Source: Promethearchaeota archaeon
GTDB lineage: Archaea; Asgardarchaeota; Heimdallarchaeia; Hodarchaeales; Hodarchaeaceae
Reading direction: 5' to 3'
Length of the DNA: 64,000 nt
Assembly: GCA_048938105.1 (NCBI GenBank)
Contig: JBHLMN010000020.1
Span: forward strand, 46,627-110,626
Positions 48,272-57,616 of the stretch are shown piece by piece (the stretch's first letter is position 1; every line of letters begins with the position of its first letter). Below the pieces are notes generated by a model. It was not told where the DNA came from, made no database searches, and was given only the letters and a program-made list of their open reading frames with translations. The translations under genes were made by a program, and so were the position numbers.

Positions 48272-49264
48272 TCAGAGTTCTTTTTCTAAGTGATGACCAC
48301 AATTTTCACAGAAATTGTCGTCTCTAAGAATCATATCACCACAGTTAGAACAAAAACGAACATAATCGTTAATTTCAACAGGAGAAATATCGAGAAAACT
48401 TTCCAATGAATGTTGGGGAGCGTCTCCAACCCGTTTTCGGACATCAACCATCTTTACCTCTTCGGGCCTTTTTAAGGGTTGTTTTAGTAGAATAGCTAAC
48501 TGCCTGGCATTCGCTGGGGCACTTCCGTGGGGGTGATTGTTAAAATAGGTGAAAATTTCTTTCAATCCTCTATTTCTTGTTAATGTTTGGATTTTTGACA
48601 CCCAAGGGCTTAATTCCTTAAGAGAATATTGATAATTGTACCAAGGTTTAAGACCATGGCCATGGAATCTGATGTAAGTGAAATCTGCCGTTACTGGTGT
48701 TATCGGAGGTAGTAATGGTTCATCTACAATGCAGTAAGCGGCATTATATTGTGACAAAAGCTCAAGTGTCTGATCCAGTCGTTTGTGTTCAACCCAAGAT
48801 GTATGTCGAAATTCTACAGCTAACCTAATGTTGGTTGGCCAGTACTTCAAAAATATGCTAAGCTGTTTGAAATTATCCGTGGAAAATTTTGGAGGTAATT
48901 GGAGTAGAGCTGGACCTGCTTTCTTATGTAATCCATTTTGAATAGTATCTAAAAATGGGCGTAATTCTTCCCAGTAACCTTGATTAAAATCGAGTTTTTT
49001 TCTATGAGTTATATGACGCGGGATTTTGTAGGAAAAAATGAAATTATTAGGAACATTCAGCCCCCATTTATTCACAACAGCAGCTCTAGGAAAATGGTAA
49101 AAAGTCGTATTTATTTCTACTGTTGGGAATATTTCAGCATAAAAAGATAATCGATGCTGTGTGGTTAAACCTGGGGGATAAAAAGGGAGACGAGTTTTTT
49201 CTTGACGAGCCTGCCAGTCAGAGTACCCGAAACCACTTGTTCCTATTAAGATTTTTGCAGACAT
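48272..49264 (-). CDS. DUF72 family protein with C-terminal zinc ribbon
   Basis: IGTSG, TVEINTTFY, LLQLPP, VEFRH, YIRFHG, YFNNH; FCSNCG...FCENCG. Confidence 0.92.
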   Translation of the reverse strand: MSAKILIGTSGFGYSDWQARQEKTRLPFYPPGLTTQHRLSFYAEIFPTVEINTTFYHFPRAAVVNKWGLNVPNNFIFSYKIPRHITHRKKLDFNQGYWEELRPFLDTIQNGLHKKAGPALLQLPPKFSTDNFKQLSIFLKYWPTNIRLAVEFRHTSWVEHKRLDQTLELLSQYNAAYCIVDEPLLPPITPVTADFTYIRFHGHGLKPWYNYQYSLKELSPWVSKIQTLTRNRGLKEIFTYFNNHPHGSAPANARQLAILLKQPLKRPEEVKMVDVRKRVGDAPQHSLESFLDISPVEINDYVRFCSNCGDMILRDDNFCENCGHHLEKEL

Positions 49265-49430
49265 AACTTCTCCTCTAAGATATACGAGGATATAATTAGA
49301 AATGTAACAATTTAAACCTTTTGAATTCGGTGATTCAAATCATGTCTATACTTGTAAACCTCTTCTGGTAATTTTCTTGTGGATACCTATTTAAAATCGT
49401 ATAATTTCTTCTAATTGGTGTCTTGTTATT

Positions 49431-52275
49431 ATGGATAAAGAACTGAACATCTCCTCTAATCAAATTCAATATGTATATATCACTCCTCATACTCACTGGG
49501 ACATGTGGGATCATTCGTGAGTTCACACCCAACAGGGAGTGGTATTTACCTTTTCAGAAGTTTCGATACAAATTGGTGAAATTGATTGATGAACTATTGG
49601 ATATCTTAGCCAATCAAACCTTTTATTTCACATTTGATGGTCAAACAATCATATTAGAGGATTATCTCGAAATTCGTCCTGAAAGAAAGGAGGAGCTATT
49701 ACATTTCATAAGAGATGGAAAAATAGCAGTAGGCCCATGGTATTTACTACCTGATATATGGTTGGTAGGCCAAGAGAGTCTAATTAGGAATTTGGAATAT
49801 AGTTACGATTTGGCGAAAGAGTTGGATGTCCCTCTTATGCAAATAGGCTATCTTCCTGATATGTTTGGTCATTCACGAGCTATTCCTCAACTGATTGGAG
49901 ATTTAACAAATTTCAAATCAGTAATGGTTTGGCGGGGAGTACCACCTGAAATAACTACTGTTCCATTTCTCTGGAAGAGTGATAGTTCAGTTACAAGTTC
50001 AATTTTAGCGATATACCTTCCTTTTGGATATGGGAACGCTGCAATGCTTCCTGAAGAAGCAGAAAAATTAACTGATGAGATTATGGAACTTGTACGACAA
50101 TTACAACCCTATTCACCCTTACCAGTATATTTATTACATAATGGAACTGACCATCAATTTCCTAAACCGAGAATAGCGACAAATCTTTCTCTAGTAAAAA
50201 TAAACAATATGCAGATCTCTTTATCTGTTCTTGATGATTACGTTCTAAAACTACAGGAATTTATAGTCAATAATGAATATTCTCCTCCTGAATATGCTGG
50301 AGAACTGAGATCTGCAGCTCGGGCTCATCTATTACAAGATACATACTCCTCACGCATGTGGATCAAACAGTGGAACCAAAAAATCGAGGATATGTTGGTT
50401 AATTATGCAGAACCTTTGAATACCTATACTTGGTATTATTTAAATGATAACTACCCTACCTCCTTTTTGTCTCAAGCATGGAAATGGCACTTACGTAATC
50501 AACCTCATGATTCTATCTGTGGCTGTTCAGTAGATCAGACTCATGAGGAGATGCGATTCCGTTATTATTGGGCTGAGTCAATCGCAGAAATGACGATTGA
50601 AAACGCGATCACTACTCTTAAAGATACATCACAGCCCTCAATTACGTATTCGTGTCTTGCATTTAATCCAACAAATTGTTCAAAACCTATTGGTATTGTA
50701 TTCAATGTTTCAGGAGATATTTTAGTTAATTCTGTCAGAATAGATAATCAAGAATACCAAGTACAACCTTTCCAATCTTCTACAAATATTGTGTGGGAGA
50801 TGACCTTAGGAGGGTTTAAACTTCGAACATTAATGAAAATGTTCCCAGGAAGACGACTTATGAATTATTATATTAATAAAACTTCATTAATGGAGGGGCT
50901 TAATCCTGAGATCTGTGAGGTTCAATTGGAAGTCGGTGATAGACCAGAGGGAGAACTTGACATGAGGGAAATGAAAAAAGAACTCTTGAAAGTGATTGAT
51001 AGTAAAAAATACAAAAAATTTCACATTCTAATCACTAAGGAGCACGAACAAAGCTACTTTACATGGGCTCCTTTAAAACCTTGGAGTTTTGCAATGTTAG
51101 AGATTTTAGATTCTTTTCAAGAAAAATCATCTTCTAAAACTTTAATTATTTCAAAAGACCGCGTAAGTAATGATTTCTATGATTTGACCTTCAACAAAGA
51201 TGGTTCTTTCGATATTAAAGACAAATCTAATGATATATACTATAGCAAATTGCATCAATTCGAAGATTGGGGAGATCGAGGAGACGAATATACATTTGGT
51301 CGTCTTGGTCCAGAATTTGTTAAGGTAGAAGAAGTCAAAAGAACAACTAAACTGTTTGGGCCTTTATTTTGTGAGATTCAACAGAATATGATTTTAGAAT
51401 TCTTTCAAGAAGTCGATGAGTCCAGAGAAAATCGTATTGGTAAAAGAAAAGTACCAATAAGCACTATCTTCAGATTCTACCGTGATTCCCCCCAAATTGA
51501 TATGAAAACAACGATAACAAACGTTACTAAGGACCATAGGTTAAGAATATGCTTTGATCTTCCCTTTGAAACTGAACATACTTATTCTTCTACTCACTTT
51601 GGATGTATAAAAAGACCAAGTGACCCCGTAGGTGATGAAACTTATATTGAGAAACCATCAGGGATCCAACCTCAAAAACGTTACATTCGAGTAGAAGATA
51701 AAGAAAGTCAACGAGCTTTTTCACTAATGAATAAAGGCTTACCAGAGGTTGAATTAGAAAATAGAAGACGTCTTGCTTTAACGTTGATACGTTCAATTGG
51801 TTGGCTTTCATGTTCTGGGATTCCTGAGAGACCCGAACATGCTGGTCCAAGAATACCTACTCCAAGAGCTCAGGAACTCAATGTAACCTACATATTTGAA
51901 TATAGTATAGTAGTACATTCAAAGAATGATCCTCTTTGGCTTACAGAAGCATATTCAGAGTCATTCTCATTACAACCTATAACAACTTACTTCAGTTCAA
52001 AAACGCCATCAGTTGACATTCTTCAACCCTTGATTCAAGTACTGAATCCCAATATTAGGATATCTTCATTACGAGTGCGACAGGAAAAATTGTATGTAAC
52101 AATGTTTAATCTATTGAGTGAGGCTGTCAACACGGTTGTTAAGTTTCCTTCAAATGTTGTCAATTTCACTCAAATCAAATTTGATGGTTTGAAAAGGGAA
52201 GAAAATGAATTGGTTGAAAATCAAATAACTCTTAATTTTGATCCACATGAAATAAAGATGTGTACATTTATGTGA
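49431..52275 (+). CDS. GH38 alpha-mannosidase, spliced: join(49431..49502,49534..52275), 937 aa
   Basis: Exon 1 ends PHTHWD and exon 2 starts REWYLPF; also FDGQT, GPWY, PDMFGH, NGTDH, HDSICGCS, DHRLR. Confidence 0.9.
49503..49533 (+). other. 31-nt bulge-helix-bulge intron in a protein-coding gene
   Basis: Helix UGGG(49497-500)/CCCA(49528-31); ACA bulges at 49501-03 and 49532-34; intron hairpin with UUCG loop; excision restores HWD-REWY. Confidence 0.85.
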
Positions 52276-53397: not shown

Positions 53398-53703
53398 TTA
53401 TTCCTGTTTTAAAACCATTTTTTCTTTAAGTTTTTCCTGAATTATTGAATCCCACAAATCCATGATTCCTGTTCCTATTAATGCATTCGTATCAAATAAT
53501 TCTCCTAAATCAGCAGTCAAGAGATTTCTGGCGTTAGCAGCACTTTCGAGAGCAAATTTAATCCGTTCATTCGTAAGATAATTAAATTTCACGTCATAAT
53601 CAACCCATTTAGAACGAACCCGTACGAAAGAATCATGTTCGCTTGTCTCATCATGAATATGTTCAATTCCTCCCGAATTTGGTATTGCTAAAAGACGCCT
53701 CAT
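53398..53703 (-). CDS. 101-aa hypothetical ORF, possibly the last exon of the upstream giant gene
   Basis: Starts 1 nt after the stop of 53705-57616; its 5' end lies inside a predicted BHB hairpin. Confidence 0.55.
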   Translation of the reverse strand: MRRLLAIPNSGGIEHIHDETSEHDSFVRVRSKWVDYDVKFNYLTNERIKFALESAANARNLLTADLGELFDTNALIGTGIMDLWDSIIQEKLKEKMVLKQE

Positions 53704-53731
53704 CCTATATGGCTCCGAATGAGATGTTTTT
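53686..53731 (-). other. Candidate 46-nt relaxed BHB intron
   Basis: Helix CUAA/UUAG, bulges UUA and CAA, 14-bp intron stem (2 mismatches) enclosing the UAG stop; excision gives in-frame ELI-IPNSGG. Confidence 0.5.
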
Positions 53732-56700
53732 AATTAGCTCAATATCTAATAGTGCTTCTCCTCCTTTTTCTTTCAATACCTTAATCCTATTCAAAGGGAG
53801 ACTACGGTTAAGTCTAGGAAGAGGTAATAACCCTAAATCTTCCGTGAGCTCCTCAAAGTCTCTTGTTTTTAATAAATATCGGATTGTTCTTAATCCCATT
53901 TTTGATTCATCATTTTCTTCTGCTACAATAATTGAAAGTGTATTTTCATTAAAAGAATATGTTCCAAATACTACCTTATACATACCATTATCATCAAATA
54001 TAATGAGGAAGGGAAATACCTGAATCTCTTCCCCTCTAGGGATTTCAAGGTGTTTCAGAAGTTGTACATCACTTCTTAAACGTTTTTTTATGATCTGACT
54101 AGGTTCAAAAAAAGGAAAGACCAGTTGTATGAATAAACTAAAGTTACCAAGCTTTTCACCATAAAATTCAACTTCTTCAGGAAGAAATCGTGAAATTTGA
54201 CAATCATTTTTCAAGTACATTTTATATGCAGTTGTAACCTTCAGATTGCATCGTGAAACATCACGTTGTGTTTGAGACATTATTTCTTTTGACATTCTTT
54301 CCCTTAAAGTTCCAATATCTTTTAGAAGGACTAATCTAGCTTCATCTAATAATTGTTTTAGGACTATTTTAAATAGGGAGTCTGGTTCAGTGGCATTTAA
54401 TCTATTTCTTTCAATAAGACCTGCAATCACTTCTGATGCATTTTGTGTTAGAGGATGAAGAAGGCCCATTGGGATGTTTTCCTTTGAAATCAATTCAAGG
54501 GTTAATCCAGTAACCGTGGAACCTTCAAAGGGATTTTCTGTATAAGAAGCAGCACAGAAAGTTTCACTTTCCCCAAGTTGAAAAACAACCGATTGGAGAG
54601 TAAGACCTGATATACTTAATCCTGTAGCTTTTTTTACCACATCACTTATATTTAATTCCTGAGTTGAGCCTAATAACTGACGACAACTCTCAATTCGATT
54701 CTCCTGGTAGATAATAAAATCTAAATCACCAGTAACTTTCTTTCTGTAAGCGATCTTTTCTTTTCCAATATTTGACCAATTTAGATATAAGAAATATGTA
54801 CTCAATTGGGAATCACATTTAACAGCTTCAGAAAACACTTCATGGGAATAATCTAGAAACTCAGGCGATAAGTGAGTTGTTTCAAACCCCAAAGGTTCTT
54901 TCAGATTCCCAACAATTAAAGGCACCATGAAATTTCTAATATTATCTCTCCCACTCCCTCTAAAAAGAAGCCCAAGAACTTTCTGTTCAAAATCTTCTCG
55001 TTCCCCTTCTTTAATATTAGAAAAAATATCTTCTAAATATGATTCAGCTAGGTTGATGACTGAATTTCCCCAACTTCTTATCCACTCTGTAATTAGTTCT
55101 CTAGCTACGAGCCCTCTTATCCCTGGCTCCCCAATAAGAGGATGAAAAATTTCCGATTCCTTAAAACGATTATATTCAGAAATATTTATAGATCTAGTGG
55201 CCTGTTGTACCCTATTGTCAGCTTCAAGGTCTGCTAAAACTCCTCTAAGGCTAAATACTTTGTCCCATAATTTAATTTGATCTAATACATAATCAATTAT
55301 TGTTTGAATGTTATAATCAAAGTTAAATTGAGAGAAAGTATTCCTTAATGCCTCAATTTGCTTTTGTAATAGTGTTTTAAGGAAATTTGCCTTGTTAATT
55401 TTATCATTATAATTTAACATGAGGGATTTCATCGATTCCTCAACGAGGAATATTACTCCTCCATAAATAGTCTTCAGAAGAACGTCAGTGGGGTTAGTAG
55501 TTTTCTCTAGACTTATTGATTCGGTAATAATTGAATTATAGTATTGATTTGTTCTAACAAACCAATCAATTACTATATTTTCTAATGAAATTCGTTCTTC
55601 TATTTCTTGATCGAAAGTTTTTCTCTCTACTTCTTCTTTAACTTCTCTACCTAGGACTTCATTTATGATGACTTTACTTTCCTCAAATACATTATCTAAA
55701 TAATTTTCAACATCTTCACGATGAGTAATAATTGGATTTTCTGGTAATTTAAGTACTATATCAATAATTTTGACATCTTTTAAATATTCATTTACATAAT
55801 ATAATCCACTTAACGATTCTCTAAGACTTTCAAAGATTAATTGATTAATTTCTGAAGGTTTTTTACCTAAGACAGTAATTTCATTCTGATAGTAACTGAT
55901 CAATTCTCTTGATAAGTCTTCCATCTCATTTTGCCAAACTTGTTTTACTGGTGATTCAATATAAAGTTCAAATCCTGACTTGAGAATTTTTTTAATCCAA
56001 ACTTTGTTGAGAACAGAGCGAATTGCGGAAAATGTTCTATTAAAGTATTTTTGCGCTTCTTCTGGTGTAGAGAAAACAGGAAGTAATAATGGAACCTTAT
56101 TACTTAAGATCTCAAAAACAACATCAGATTCGACTTTTTTTAAACTGTAACTAGAACTACCTGCATGTTTTGGGCTTTCTTGCACTAGAAGATTTAAGCG
56201 CTCTCGTACTGTTTGTTTTGGAGATGTTGAAAGTCCTTTACTAGCTATGTCAAGTATAAAATCATAAAAAAACTTCTCTTGCCAAGAATTAGGGTATAGA
56301 ACTTCATTATAATTCCTTATATCAATAATTTGGTTTCCTATAGCTTTTGATGCTCCACTAAGATTCATAGTTTTGAATGAATCAAGTAATGCTTTTTCTA
56401 TCCCCCCTCGTCTTACACTGAGGATGTATGAGTAAGCCATTTTATTAGAAAAATAATTTACTGCTGATTCAAGGATATTTTTCTCTGTGCTTTGAAACAT
56501 CTCATATAATGAGAGAACTTTTTCTTTCTTTTTTATTTGCTGTAAAACATCTCTTTGAATTTCTTCAATCAGGTCAAGAATCGTAATTTCTTCGCCCATA
56601 GGTACATTTTTTGACCATTCGATTATTTTAACTCTCATTAAAATCTGTAAGAATCTAAGAAATATAATTTCTAGTTCTTGCGGTTTGAATTCTAGTTTCG

Positions 56701-57616
56701 ATATCAGATTGTCTAGATTAGTTGTAAAGTCATAATCATAAGTTCTTACCACTTCACGAAAGTATGAACGCCCCTCAGGAGGGTCAGAAAGAGTTAAGTC
56801 TAGTCCTCCGCTAAGATAAGAACTGAAAAAGTTTACAATTTCTTCTTCAGAGAAACTAACCTCAGCAATTCTATTTGCAATGCTAATGATTCTACGTAAA
56901 CCTAAAACTCCTCCAATGAATAAGGAAACTTGATGAACCACATCCATCATTTGGGAAACATTTCTTCCAAGACTAATGGAAATCTCAGGATAACTAAAGC
57001 TTGCACCTAACTTCTCATAATTTTGATTATTCTCGTAAAATTCCTCAAAAATTAGTCTATAACTCTTAATTTCATCTTCTTTGTAAACACTCCAAATAAA
57101 AGCCTTTGAAGCTTCTTCGAGTAATTCTTTTCCAGAAAGATTTATCATTCCTTCCAAATAATAGAGTATCTTCTTTTCAAATTCTGGATAAGGAATCATT
57201 TCAGTTTTAGCGTTTTCAAGGAGCTTTGTTTTAAACAGAGAGTCTTTTAGACCAATTCGTTGAAATTTATTGCGTTTTATTATTTCAGCTATTTCCTCAG
57301 AGGCTTCAGAGGGTATATCTTCTTGTACCTCTTGCTTTTTTATGTCAATTTTCAAGGCTTCTTCTACTAAATGATAATTATCATTGATGAAAGAAAAAAT
57401 AATCGAAGGAGTGATTTTACCTTCTGTAAGGGTTTGCTTTCTCTCCTCTTGAACGTTCCAGAAACGTTTTTGAAACTCTTGGTCTTGAAAAGCCTCTTTA
57501 TTCTCTTCAAATGCTTCGAACACAGTCATTCGACGCGATACTATGCTTTGAGGTATTTCCACTAACTTAAGGTAACCGCATATTGTCCTTAATAACCAGG
57601 TTTCTTCAATAGTCAA
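53705..57616 (-). CDS. Large helical hypothetical protein (1303 aa; about 1390 aa if spliced)
   Basis: Long open frame, GAGG upstream of TTG start, no recognisable motif. Confidence 0.8.
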   Translation of the reverse strand: MTIEETWLLRTICGYLKLVEIPQSIVSRRMTVFEAFEENKEAFQDQEFQKRFWNVQEERKQTLTEGKITPSIIFSFINDNYHLVEEALKIDIKKQEVQEDIPSEASEEIAEIIKRNKFQRIGLKDSLFKTKLLENAKTEMIPYPEFEKKILYYLEGMINLSGKELLEEASKAFIWSVYKEDEIKSYRLIFEEFYENNQNYEKLGASFSYPEISISLGRNVSQMMDVVHQVSLFIGGVLGLRRIISIANRIAEVSFSEEEIVNFFSSYLSGGLDLTLSDPPEGRSYFREVVRTYDYDFTTNLDNLISKLEFKPQELEIIFLRFLQILMRVKIIEWSKNVPMGEEITILDLIEEIQRDVLQQIKKKEKVLSLYEMFQSTEKNILESAVNYFSNKMAYSYILSVRRGGIEKALLDSFKTMNLSGASKAIGNQIIDIRNYNEVLYPNSWQEKFFYDFILDIASKGLSTSPKQTVRERLNLLVQESPKHAGSSSYSLKKVESDVVFEILSNKVPLLLPVFSTPEEAQKYFNRTFSAIRSVLNKVWIKKILKSGFELYIESPVKQVWQNEMEDLSRELISYYQNEITVLGKKPSEINQLIFESLRESLSGLYYVNEYLKDVKIIDIVLKLPENPIITHREDVENYLDNVFEESKVIINEVLGREVKEEVERKTFDQEIEERISLENIVIDWFVRTNQYYNSIITESISLEKTTNPTDVLLKTIYGGVIFLVEESMKSLMLNYNDKINKANFLKTLLQKQIEALRNTFSQFNFDYNIQTIIDYVLDQIKLWDKVFSLRGVLADLEADNRVQQATRSINISEYNRFKESEIFHPLIGEPGIRGLVARELITEWIRSWGNSVINLAESYLEDIFSNIKEGEREDFEQKVLGLLFRGSGRDNIRNFMVPLIVGNLKEPLGFETTHLSPEFLDYSHEVFSEAVKCDSQLSTYFLYLNWSNIGKEKIAYRKKVTGDLDFIIYQENRIESCRQLLGSTQELNISDVVKKATGLSISGLTLQSVVFQLGESETFCAASYTENPFEGSTVTGLTLELISKENIPMGLLHPLTQNASEVIAGLIERNRLNATEPDSLFKIVLKQLLDEARLVLLKDIGTLRERMSKEIMSQTQRDVSRCNLKVTTAYKMYLKNDCQISRFLPEEVEFYGEKLGNFSLFIQLVFPFFEPSQIIKKRLRSDVQLLKHLEIPRGEEIQVFPFLIIFDDNGMYKVVFGTYSFNENTLSIIVAEENDESKMGLRTIRYLLKTRDFEELTEDLGLLPLPRLNRSLPLNRIKVLKEKGGEALLDIELIKNISFGAI

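What the first reader, a model, noticed from the sequence alone, without database searches (positions are those of the whole stretch)
49431..49545. Canonical bulge-helix-bulge intron splitting the active-site motif of a GH38 alpha-mannosidase mRNA
Seen: the frame from ATG 49431 reads MDKELNISSNQIQYVYITPHTHWD, then MWDHS-stop, while REWYLPF continues in another frame 31 nt later. The RNA can fold as follows: 4-bp helix UGGG(49497-500)/CCCA(49528-31); a 3-nt bulge ACA 3' of each strand (49501-03, 49532-34); intron stem UGUGGG/UUCACA plus UCA-UUCG-UGA; exon stem ACUCAC/GGGAGU (one mismatch). Known: archaeal EndA cuts after the second nucleotide of each bulge and RtcB ligates; HxHWDREWY carries the GH38 Zn ligands; the classic archaeal mRNA intron is cbf5 in Crenarchaeota. 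Applying the rule removes 49503-49533 and gives CAC UGG GAC AGG GAG UGG UAU = HWDREWY, a 937-aa enzyme. Inference: tRNA-type splicing is obligatory for a metabolic enzyme. An internal UGGG (49506-09) can compete for CCCA, offering a possible conformational switch.
Basis: partly seen in the sequence, partly recalled or inferred. Interest (0 to 1): 0.97.

Follow-up and report, generated by a model that had tools for sequence, protein, structure and literature searches.

The report
tRNA-type intron splits Asgard mannosidase gene
A 31-base insert shaped like an archaeal tRNA intron breaks the metal-binding motif of an alpha-mannosidase gene in a Hodarchaeales (Asgard) archaeon and 13 relatives, so the enzyme can very probably be made only after the mRNA is cut and rejoined by the tRNA-splicing enzymes, which is published for only one other archaeal coding sequence (cbf5).

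Summary
ATG 49431 opens a 24-codon exon ending in HTHWD. A 31-nt insert (49503-49533) carries an in-frame TGA. REWY and 909 further GH38 codons follow in the +1 frame.

The insert and its flanks form a bulge-helix-bulge: UGGG/CCCA, two ACA bulges and an intron hairpin. Cutting after the second bulge base restores HWDREWY.

Evidence that this is a real spliced intron:
- Thirteen other assemblies carry an insert of exactly 31 nt at the same site.
- All 56 central-helix cells pair, and the hairpin has compensatory changes.
- Exon 2 has dN/dS of 0.09-0.18. Exon 1 is selected only in the frame that dead-ends in the insert.
- Syntenic sister species lack the insert precisely.
- The insert is single-copy in the genome.
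- The genome encodes alpha- and beta-type EndA subunits and RtcB.

No RNA data could be obtained, so the splicing itself is inferred.

A second, unrelated 30-nt BHB insert lies 6 nt downstream in the GH38 genes of other Asgard MAGs.

This scan has already noted the same intron in another Hodarchaeales genome (e1-5454676). In print, only cbf5 is documented.

The parts
49431..49502 (+). Exon 1: 24 codons, M...YVYITPHTHWD. It holds two of the four GH38 metal ligands (second His and Asp of HTHWD).
   Evidence: Translation. All intron-bearing orthologues checked have an ATG exactly 24 codons upstream. For its last 39 nt, pN/pS is 0.24 in this frame against 2.58 and 1.26 in the other frames. Ligand assignment by homology to SpGH38 H13/D15 (PMC2815779).
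49503..49533 (+). 31-nt BHB intron (phase 0, between the Asp and Arg codons). It contains an in-frame TGA at 49518-20.
   Evidence: Exactly 31 nt in 14 distinct sequences, with no indels. Single copy in the genome. No Rfam match.
49534..52275 (+). Exon 2: 913 codons plus stop, REWYLPF... It holds the GH38 N, middle and C domains.
   Evidence: dN/dS is 0.09-0.18 against the other intron-bearing orthologues.
49491..49496 (+). Exon helix, 5' strand (ACUCAC). It pairs with 49535-49540.
   Evidence: 76% of cells paired; pair 11/52 never pairs. RNAalifold prefers a register shifted by 2.
49497..49500 (+). Central 4-bp helix, 5' strand (UGGG, from the Trp-Asp codons).
   Evidence: 56 of 56 cells paired with columns 44-47.
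49501..49503 (+). 5' bulge ACA. Predicted cut between 49502 and 49503.
   Evidence: The cut rule (between the 2nd and 3rd bulge residue) comes from PMC2738675.
49504..49527 (+). Intron hairpin (h'): a stem of up to 10 bp with a 4-nt loop.
   Evidence: 86% of cells paired. Compensatory changes at pairs 23/40 (GC to AU) and 26/37 (CG to UA).
49528..49531 (+). Central helix, 3' strand (CCCA).
   Evidence: Orthologues vary as CCCA, CUCA and CUCG. All of these pair with UGGG.
49532..49534 (+). 3' bulge ACA. Predicted cut between 49533 and 49534. A49534 is the first base of the Arg codon.
   Evidence: The middle base varies freely (C/U/A). The Arg codon is AGR in 14 of 14 intron-bearing genes but CGN in 4 of 5 intron-less clade members with DNA in hand.
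49535..49540 (+). Exon helix, 3' strand (GGGAGU).
49471..52275 (+). The 934-aa ORF that gene callers report (spurious N-terminus MYISLLILTGTCGIIREFTPN). It lacks HTHWD.
   Evidence: P0003. The same artefact appears in P0005, P0007, P0009, P0014, P0015, P0017, P0018 and P0020-P0022.

Best explanation
The GH38 alpha-mannosidase gene of this Hodarchaeales-type Asgard archaeon is a two-exon gene interrupted by a 31-nt bulge-helix-bulge intron.

Proposed mechanism:
1. In the pre-mRNA, the Trp-Asp codons (UGGG) pair with CCCA near the 3' end of the insert.
2. This presents two 3-nt bulges on opposite strands, flanked by an intron hairpin and a short exon-exon helix.
3. The heteromeric (alpha-beta)2 splicing endonuclease cuts after the second base of each bulge.
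4. RtcB joins the exons (...GAC|AGG...). This restores HTHWD-REWY and a 937-aa enzyme.
5. The 31-nt intron is probably released as a circle.

Without splicing, translation from ATG 49431 stops after 29 codons. Any product started at ATG 49471 lacks two of the four metal ligands.

Shown: the anatomy, conservation, selection on both exons, precise absence in sister species, and presence of the enzymes.
Inferred: the cleavage, the ligation, the circle, and that splicing is obligatory.
For: 1. Geometry at the stated bases. RNAalifold on 11 sequences independently returns the 4-bp helix with two 3-nt bulges. The BHB is the single-sequence minimum-energy fold in 8 of 11 sequences.

2. Fourteen distinct sequences from independent assemblies carry an insert of exactly 31 nt at the same site.
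- Central helix: 56/56 cells paired, with only pair-preserving changes (C/U opposite G, A/G opposite U).
- Overall: 86% paired against 30-51% when the partners are slid.
- Two compensatory pairs. Shuffles reach the observed values in 7-8 of 500.

3. Insert divergence is 0.13-0.29, while synonymous sites differ by 0.41-0.73. The insert is therefore constrained.

4. Exon 2 is intact in all (913-917 codons) with dN/dS of 0.09-0.18. Exon 1 is always 24 codons and is selected only in the frame that ends inside the insert.

5. Intron-less orthologues read HWD-REWY contiguously. They include the syntenic L085, whose flanking genes are 84% and 77% identical, and L006, which is nested among intron-bearing genes.

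6. The genome encodes an EndA alpha subunit with Y/H/K spacing, a beta subunit without the His, and RtcB. Asgard EndA is the broad-specificity (alpha-beta)2 type (PMC5829648).

7. Twenty-two of 35 aragorn-predicted tRNA genes have predicted introns, many of about 30 nt.

8. Chance rate of such a motif is 3.1e-4 per position and length.
Against:
- The window's own minimum-energy fold is a competitor. The central helix has only about 0.4 ensemble probability, and z = 0.39.
- In L009 and L065 the BHB is far from the minimum-energy fold.
- The exon helix has an invariant mismatch and an ambiguous register.
- Covariation statistics are modest because the sequences are 88% alike and related.
- The stop-codon pattern alone does not exclude a +1 shift right after the AUG that follows the Asp codon.
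Confidence: 0.85

Rival explanations
1. Recoding at the ribosome. Either a programmed +1 frameshift inside the insert adds about 10 residues between D and R, or a gene-60-like bypass hops over the 31 nt.
For: The insert is 3n+1 in length. The downstream frame is open across most of the insert in most orthologues. A shift right after the AUG that follows the Asp codon would be compatible with the stop codons of all sequences. A hairpin follows the possible take-off site.
Against: - There is no conserved slippery or stop-stimulated site: the codon after AUG is UGG, UGA, UGU, AGU or UAA.
- The three bases before AGR (AAC, AAU, AAA, GAU, GAC) do not match the GAY take-off codon, except in two sequences (L007 and L089).
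- Variation in the insert follows RNA pairing, not a peptide.
- Ten extra residues would lie between the Zn-ligand Asp and the substrate-stacking Trp (PMC2815779).
- Sister species do without the insert.
Confidence: 0.04
2. The insert is not removed. Either the gene is decaying, or only the truncated protein from ATG 49471 is made. That protein lacks two metal ligands and would be, for example, a non-catalytic binding protein.
For: Gene callers report exactly this 934-aa ORF (P0003). No expression data are available.
Against: - All 14 intron-bearing genes keep 913-917 intact codons with dN/dS of 0.09-0.18 at saturated dS.
- Exon 1, upstream of and out of frame with that ORF, keeps HTHWD and a 24-codon length, with pN/pS of 0.24 in its own frame.
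- The gene callers' frame shows pN/pS of 2.58 there.
Confidence: 0.04
3. A 28-nt mobile mini-element with an ACA target duplication. It is tolerated in the gene and is removed at the DNA level in some lineages.
For: ACA direct repeats flank the insert in the window. Presence and absence are patchy on the gene tree, with at least 6 changes forced.
Against: - There is no second copy in the 5.85-Mb genome; the best other matches are chance 12-13-mers.
- The flanking triplets differ in most relatives (ACA/AUA, AUA/AAA, AUA/ACA), so they are not a target duplication.
- Insert divergence roughly tracks host-gene divergence.
- An unexcised element would still inactivate a gene that is clearly under selection.
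Confidence: 0.03

Closest known systems
BHB intron of the cbf5 (pseudouridine synthase) pre-mRNA in Crenarchaeota (Watanabe 2002; Yoshinari 2006; Yokobori 2009, PMC2738675)
   Same: Both are short BHB introns inside a protein-coding sequence. Both are placed at a catalytic or ligand residue codon. Cuts are predicted between the 2nd and 3rd bulge bases. The host has a heteromeric (alpha-beta)2 EndA. Distribution is patchy, with inferred secondary losses.
   Different: The gene is different (a GH38 glycosidase, a metabolic enzyme) and so is the phylum (Asgard, Hodarchaeales). The BHB core here is the strict 3-4-3 form, whereas most cbf5 introns are relaxed. Splicing of cbf5 was shown by cDNA; here it is only inferred.
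Archaeal pre-tRNA BHB introns
   Same: Same motif and the same size class (about 30 nt) as the introns aragorn predicts in 22 of 35 tRNA genes of this genome. The same enzymes (EndA, RtcB) are presumed to act.
   Different: The host RNA is an mRNA. Both exon strands are coding sequence, so the helix is built from the Thr-His-Trp-Asp and Arg-Glu-Trp codons.
BHB intron in the 5' UTR of Haloferax volcanii HVO_1309 (PMC7714728)
   Same: An mRNA processed by the splicing endonuclease. There it was confirmed by circRNA-seq and in vitro cleavage.
   Different: That 46-nt intron lies in the 5' UTR and does not interrupt the reading frame.
HAC1/XBP1 unconventional mRNA splicing in eukaryotes (own knowledge)
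   Same: Non-spliceosomal removal of a short frame-changing intron from an mRNA, followed by ligation by a tRNA ligase (RtcB in metazoa).
   Different: The endonuclease there is IRE1, acting on two stem-loops, not EndA on a BHB. That splicing is a regulated stress switch; no regulation is shown here.
30-nt BHB insert in GH38 genes of Lokiarchaeia-type Asgard MAGs
   Same: Same enzyme family and the same HWDREWY motif. The BHB has a 4-bp helix and 3-nt bulges.
   Different: It lies 6 nt downstream (between E and W). It has a different central helix (CGUG/CAYG), different bulges (AAA/AUU) and a different intron sequence. The two inserts share no helix, bulge or hairpin sequence, which points to a separate origin; no shared-origin or sliding test was run.

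Membership tests
Archaeal BHB (hBHBh') intron, substrate of EndA | Two 3-nt bulges on opposite strands, separated by a 4-bp helix | tested here: met
   (coordinates). (RNAalifold finds it without guidance). (56/56 central-helix cells paired in 14 sequences).
Archaeal BHB (hBHBh') intron, substrate of EndA | Flanking helices: intron helix h' and exon helix h | tested here: met
   h' is 86% paired with two compensatory pairs. h is present but weak: 76% paired, one invariant mismatch, and an alternative register.
Archaeal BHB (hBHBh') intron, substrate of EndA | Cutting between the 2nd and 3rd bulge bases and ligating gives the functional product | tested here: met
   Removing 49503-49533 gives ...HTHWD|REWY..., identical in layout to intron-less orthologues. 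The rule comes from PMC2738675.
Archaeal BHB (hBHBh') intron, substrate of EndA | Statistically supported covariation | tested here: inconclusive
   Shuffles reach the observed values in 7-8 of 500 for the covariation score, percent paired and cells with changes on both sides, 40 of 500 for pairs with a change on both sides, and 224 of 500 for pair types. The sequences are related and 88% alike.
Archaeal BHB (hBHBh') intron, substrate of EndA | The host encodes the splicing endonuclease and the RtcB ligase | tested here: met
   PF01974 hits on C38: a 188-aa alpha subunit with Y-H-K spacing and a 218-aa beta subunit without the His. RtcB scores 539.6 bits on C6.
Archaeal BHB (hBHBh') intron, substrate of EndA | The intron is excised from the RNA in vivo or in vitro (spliced junction, circular intron) | not testable with these tools
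cbf5-type pre-mRNA intron | Located in the cbf5 gene of Crenarchaeota | tested here: not met
   The host gene is GH38. The relatives are Hodarchaeota and Heimdallarchaeota MAGs. It works like the cbf5 intron but is not a member.
GH38 alpha-mannosidase | The N-terminal, middle and C-terminal GH38 domains score above the Pfam cut-offs | tested here: met
   PF01074 66.3 bits, PF09261 56.4 bits, PF07748 46.6 bits. PDB 3lvt at E = 3e-77 and 2wyh at E = 8e-65.
GH38 alpha-mannosidase | Four metal ligands (SpGH38 H13, D15, D125, H351) present in one polypeptide | tested here: inconclusive
   H and D of HTHWD lie in exon 1. The candidate equivalents in exon 2 (D of LPDMFGH, H of PHDSICG) align with identical residues in 3lvt. 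They come together in one chain only after the inferred splicing. Residue roles are by homology (PMC2815779).
Miniature mobile element (MITE-like) | Multiple copies in the genome and a true target-site duplication | tested here: not met
   Single copy. The flanking triplets differ from each other in most orthologues.
Programmed frameshift or translational bypass | A conserved shift site, or matched take-off and landing codons | tested here: not met
   The codon after AUG is not conserved. The landing triplet matches GAY only in two of 14 sequences, L007 and L089.
Group I or group II intron, or another Rfam family | A match to a curated RNA family | tested here: not met
   No Rfam match at E <= 1 in 49200-49800. 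Thirty-one nt is far too short for a ribozyme intron.

The most novel reading that the evidence does not exclude
EndA/RtcB splicing of protein-coding messages is a regular and evolutionarily dynamic feature of Hodarchaeales and other Asgard archaea.
- Short BHB introns enter coding sequences repeatedly. Here, two unrelated introns lie 6 nt apart in the same GH38 motif in different classes.
- They are kept under selection, and they are lost precisely again and again.
- Because they sit at catalytic motifs, they may make enzyme synthesis depend on tRNA-splicing capacity. This would be a non-spliceosomal 'genes in pieces' state in the closest archaeal relatives of eukaryotes, working like HAC1/XBP1 splicing.
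Probability: 0.3. Interest if true: 0.9.

Novelty: new member of a known kind. Interest (0 to 1): 0.74.

Why it matters
Four searches of open-access papers and preprints found splicing inside an archaeal coding sequence documented only for cbf5 of Crenarchaeota. One further case lies in a 5' UTR (PMC7714728: "only one example"). None of the papers found reports an mRNA BHB intron in Asgard archaea.

What this case adds:
- A conserved, selected BHB intron in an ordinary metabolic enzyme of Hodarchaeales, a lineage placed next to eukaryotes. This widens the known substrate range of the tRNA-splicing machinery.
- A clean comparative system: sister species with and without the intron, and a second intron 6 nt away in other Asgard lineages.
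- A route to ask how such introns are gained and lost, and whether they regulate expression.

It also has a practical side. Gene callers give these enzymes a false N-terminus that lacks two metal ligands. This affects at least 11 database entries seen here.

Tried and rejected
- **Single-sequence thermodynamics.** The window's minimum-energy fold is not the BHB, and z = 0.39. This is not usable as support. The orthologues do better.
- **Genome-wide search for further mRNA introns.** I combined the BHB motif with ORF fusion: 16,627 hits passed against 15,441 random-position controls. Stricter cut-offs mostly returned boundaries between adjacent genes. I abandoned the scan as unspecific. It did recover 49503-49533 exactly.
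- **More sequences.** The metagenome pattern scan gave only two more copies. The genome contigs pattern scan gave no new ones.
Rejected, because the internal tetramer is not conserved.
- **Mobile mini-element.** Rejected, because there are no other copies.
- **Known RNA family.** None found.
- **Assembly artefact.** Rejected, because the insert is present in 14 assemblies from different projects.
- **Intron-less sisters as exact copies of the spliced junction.** Only partly true. L006 has GAT|AGG GAA, but L085 and L087 have GAT CGC GAG. They are therefore not recent cDNA-like replacements, or the Arg codon drifted after the loss.
Full report
**What is in the sequence**

The window is G000:C35:46627-110626 of a 5.85-Mb archaeal assembly with 35% G+C. 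Its closest GH38 relatives are MAGs labelled Hodarchaeota or Heimdallarchaeota.

- ATG 49431 opens MDKELNISSNQIQYVYITPHTHWD. The frame then runs into TGA at 49518-20.
- From 49534 the +1 frame reads REWYLPF... for 913 codons.
- That stretch holds the three GH38 Pfam domains above their cut-offs.
- It aligns to the bacterial GH38 structures 3lvt and 2wyh starting at their REWY.

In SpGH38 the catalytic zinc is held by H13, D15, D125 and H351, and W18 stacks on the sugar (PMC2815779). The 31-nt insert (49503-49533) therefore lies right after the Asp ligand and before the stacking Trp. Gene callers instead report a 934-aa ORF from ATG 49471 with a meaningless N-terminus (P0003).

**The RNA shape**

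- UGGG (49497-500) pairs with CCCA (49528-31).
- ACA bulges follow each strand, on opposite sides.
- A hairpin fills the insert, and ACUCAC/GGGAGU can close the exon side with one mismatch.

This is the 3-4-3 bulge-helix-bulge. The published cut rule, between the second and third bulge residues (PMC2738675), removes exactly 49503-49533 and gives CAC UGG GAC|AGG GAG UGG.

On its own the window sequence is not convincing thermodynamically:
- Its minimum-energy fold is a competitor (-15.0 against -13.3 to -14.1 kcal/mol).
- z is 0.39, and the central helix has about 0.4 ensemble probability.

A motif of this geometry occurs at 3.1e-4 per position and length in this genome. A motif that fits the insert boundaries exactly is therefore unlikely by chance, but the real test is comparative.

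**Comparative evidence**

Among 53 related loci, eight carry an insert at the identical site. A metagenome pattern scan added two more copies, one of them identical over the aligned 62 nt to L004, and look-ups of mis-called proteins added four. This gives 14 distinct sequences from independent projects, all with exactly 31 nt and no indels.

RNAalifold on the first 11 sequences (10 of them distinct) returns the 4-bp helix flanked by two 3-nt bulges without guidance. It prefers a different register for the exon helix.

Pair counts on the 14 sequences:

| Measure | Result |
|---|---|
| Central helix | 56 of 56 cells paired |
| Changes in its 3' strand | only C/U opposite G and A/G opposite U |
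| Intron hairpin | 86% paired |
| Compensatory changes | GC to AU at 23/40; CG to UA at 26/37 |
| Whole structure | 86% paired, against 30-51% with slid partners |
| Shuffles reaching the observed value | 7-8 of 500 for three measures (covariation score, percent paired, cells changed on both sides); 40 and 224 of 500 for the other two |

These statistics are modest, because the sequences are related and 88% alike. Loop and mid-bulge positions vary freely. Insert divergence (0.13-0.29) is far below synonymous divergence of the same gene pairs (pS 0.41-0.73). The insert is therefore constrained, not decaying.

**The gene is alive, and both exons are read in their own frames**

- Exon 2 is intact in all complete copies (913-917 codons), with dN/dS of 0.09-0.18.
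- Exon 1 is 24 codons from a conserved ATG in every intron-bearing gene checked.
- Over its last 39 nt, pN/pS is 0.24 in frame 0. It is 2.58 in the frame used by gene callers and 1.26 in the third frame.

A reading frame that is under selection yet ends inside the insert makes sense only if it is joined to exon 2.

**Presence and absence**

On the protein tree the intron-bearing genes fall in one well-supported Hodarchaeales-type clade. They are interleaved with intron-less genes, and at least six changes of state are forced. Examples:
- The window's gene is sister to P0004 (77% identical). The locus of P0004 is syntenic, with flanking genes 84% and 77% identical, and it reads CAT TGG GAT CGC GAG with no insert.
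- L005 is sister to intron-less P0011.
- L007 is sister to intron-less L006, whose junction GAT|AGG GAA equals the predicted spliced junction.

The inserts are homologous, and their divergence roughly tracks that of the host gene. One gain followed by repeated precise loss is therefore the simplest history, as proposed for cbf5 (PMC2738675).

The Arg codon is AGR in 14 of 14 intron-bearing genes. It is CGN in four of the five intron-less clade members for which I have DNA. This hints at selection on the base that doubles as the third bulge residue. The sample is small and not phylogenetically independent.

**Machinery**

- The genome has an EndA alpha-like gene (188 aa) with the Tyr/His/Lys spacing of catalytic subunits. 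This judgement rests on my own knowledge of M. jannaschii EndA numbering.
- It has a beta-like gene (218 aa) without the His.
- It has one intact RtcB.
- Asgard archaea are reported to have the broad-specificity (alpha-beta)2 enzyme with the L1 loop (PMC5829648).
- Aragorn predicts introns in 22 of 35 tRNA genes, many of 29-35 nt. Introns of this size are routine substrates here.

**Rivals**

| Rival | Main evidence against |
|---|---|
| +1 frameshift or ribosomal hop | No conserved shift site and no matched take-off and landing codons. Variation follows RNA pairing. It would put ten residues into the metal site. Stop codons alone do not exclude it. |
| Pseudogene, or a truncated product from ATG 49471 | Contradicted by selection on both exons. 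|
| Mobile mini-element | No other copy in the genome. The flanking triplets are not true duplications in most relatives. |
| Known RNA family | No Rfam family matches. |

**Context and novelty**

A second pattern scan found 14 further Asgard MAG genes, mostly labelled Promethearchaeota. In these, a different 30-nt BHB insert (helix CGUG/CAYG, bulges AAA and AUU) splits the same motif 6 nt downstream, between E and W. This motif has therefore been hit at least twice.

Four searches of open-access papers and preprints found only cbf5 as a spliced archaeal coding sequence, plus the HVO_1309 5' UTR intron (PMC7714728, PMC2738675). They found no report of mRNA BHB introns in Asgard archaea.

Notes of this scan, which are unchecked AI leads, describe:
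- the same 31-nt GH38 intron in another Hodarchaeales genome (e1-5454676);
- the Loki-type intron (e1-5498718, e1-5453494);
- another mRNA intron in this genome (e1-5540168);
- RNA support for a cold-shock gene intron elsewhere (e1-5425605).

I confirmed the first two kinds of claim on my own data. I did not test the others.

**Verdict**

[quoted passage not shown] It is very probably removed by EndA and RtcB (confidence about 0.85). It is a new member of the cbf5 kind, in a new gene and a new phylum. The missing piece is direct RNA evidence, which I could not obtain.

Noticed in passing
L068-L081 (for example L068:4898-4956): GH38 genes of 14 other Asgard MAGs (mostly labelled Promethearchaeota; motif VPETHWDRE|WYLPFQ) carry a different 30-nt BHB-shaped insert. 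It lies 6 nt downstream of the site studied here. Its central helix is CGUG/CAYG, its bulges are AAA and AUU, and it has a 6-9 bp AU-rich hairpin. This looks like a separate intron gain in the same catalytic motif.
   Followed up: partly
window 53692-53737 (- strand): The 1303-aa ORF (57616..53705, -) ends at a TAG. A 101-aa ORF (53703..53398, -) follows in a frame offset by 1 nt. The minimum-energy fold shows a hairpin (UCUCAUUC/GGAUGAGG) closed by GCUAA/UUAGC, but not a canonical 3-4-3 BHB, and z = -0.57. My motif scan did not pick it up.
   Followed up: partly
window 49471-52275; P0003, P0005, P0007, P0009, P0014, P0015, P0017, P0018, P0020-P0022: Public protein sets hold these mannosidases with spurious N-termini, such as MYISLLILTGTCGIIREFTPN. 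These are read through the intron in the wrong frame, and the HTHWD metal ligands are missing.
   Followed up: yes
L085:1560-1580, L087:640-660 compared with window 49494-49540: Intron-less sister genes use CGC for the Arg of HWDREWY, and one uses CAT for the second His. All 14 intron-bearing genes have AGR and CAC. This may reflect selection on exon bases that form the 3' bulge and the closing pair.
   Followed up: partly
G000:C38:22018-22119 (L003): A third, short match to the tRNA-intron endonuclease catalytic domain (28 bits, model positions 3-36) with an in-frame TAA. It lies about 5 kb from the beta-like EndA gene. It could be a decayed paralogue or another interrupted gene.
   Followed up: no
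G000, several contigs: Aragorn predicts introns in 22 of 35 tRNA genes, including very long ones (227, 365 and 2136 nt). It also predicts a doubtful intron-containing tRNA with anticodon CUA, which it calls tRNA-Pyl.
   Followed up: no
G000:C14:120138-120692 (L083): A second, very weak GH38 N-domain match (28.6 bits) in a 702-aa ORF. The intron-bearing gene is the only clear GH38 of this genome.
   Followed up: no
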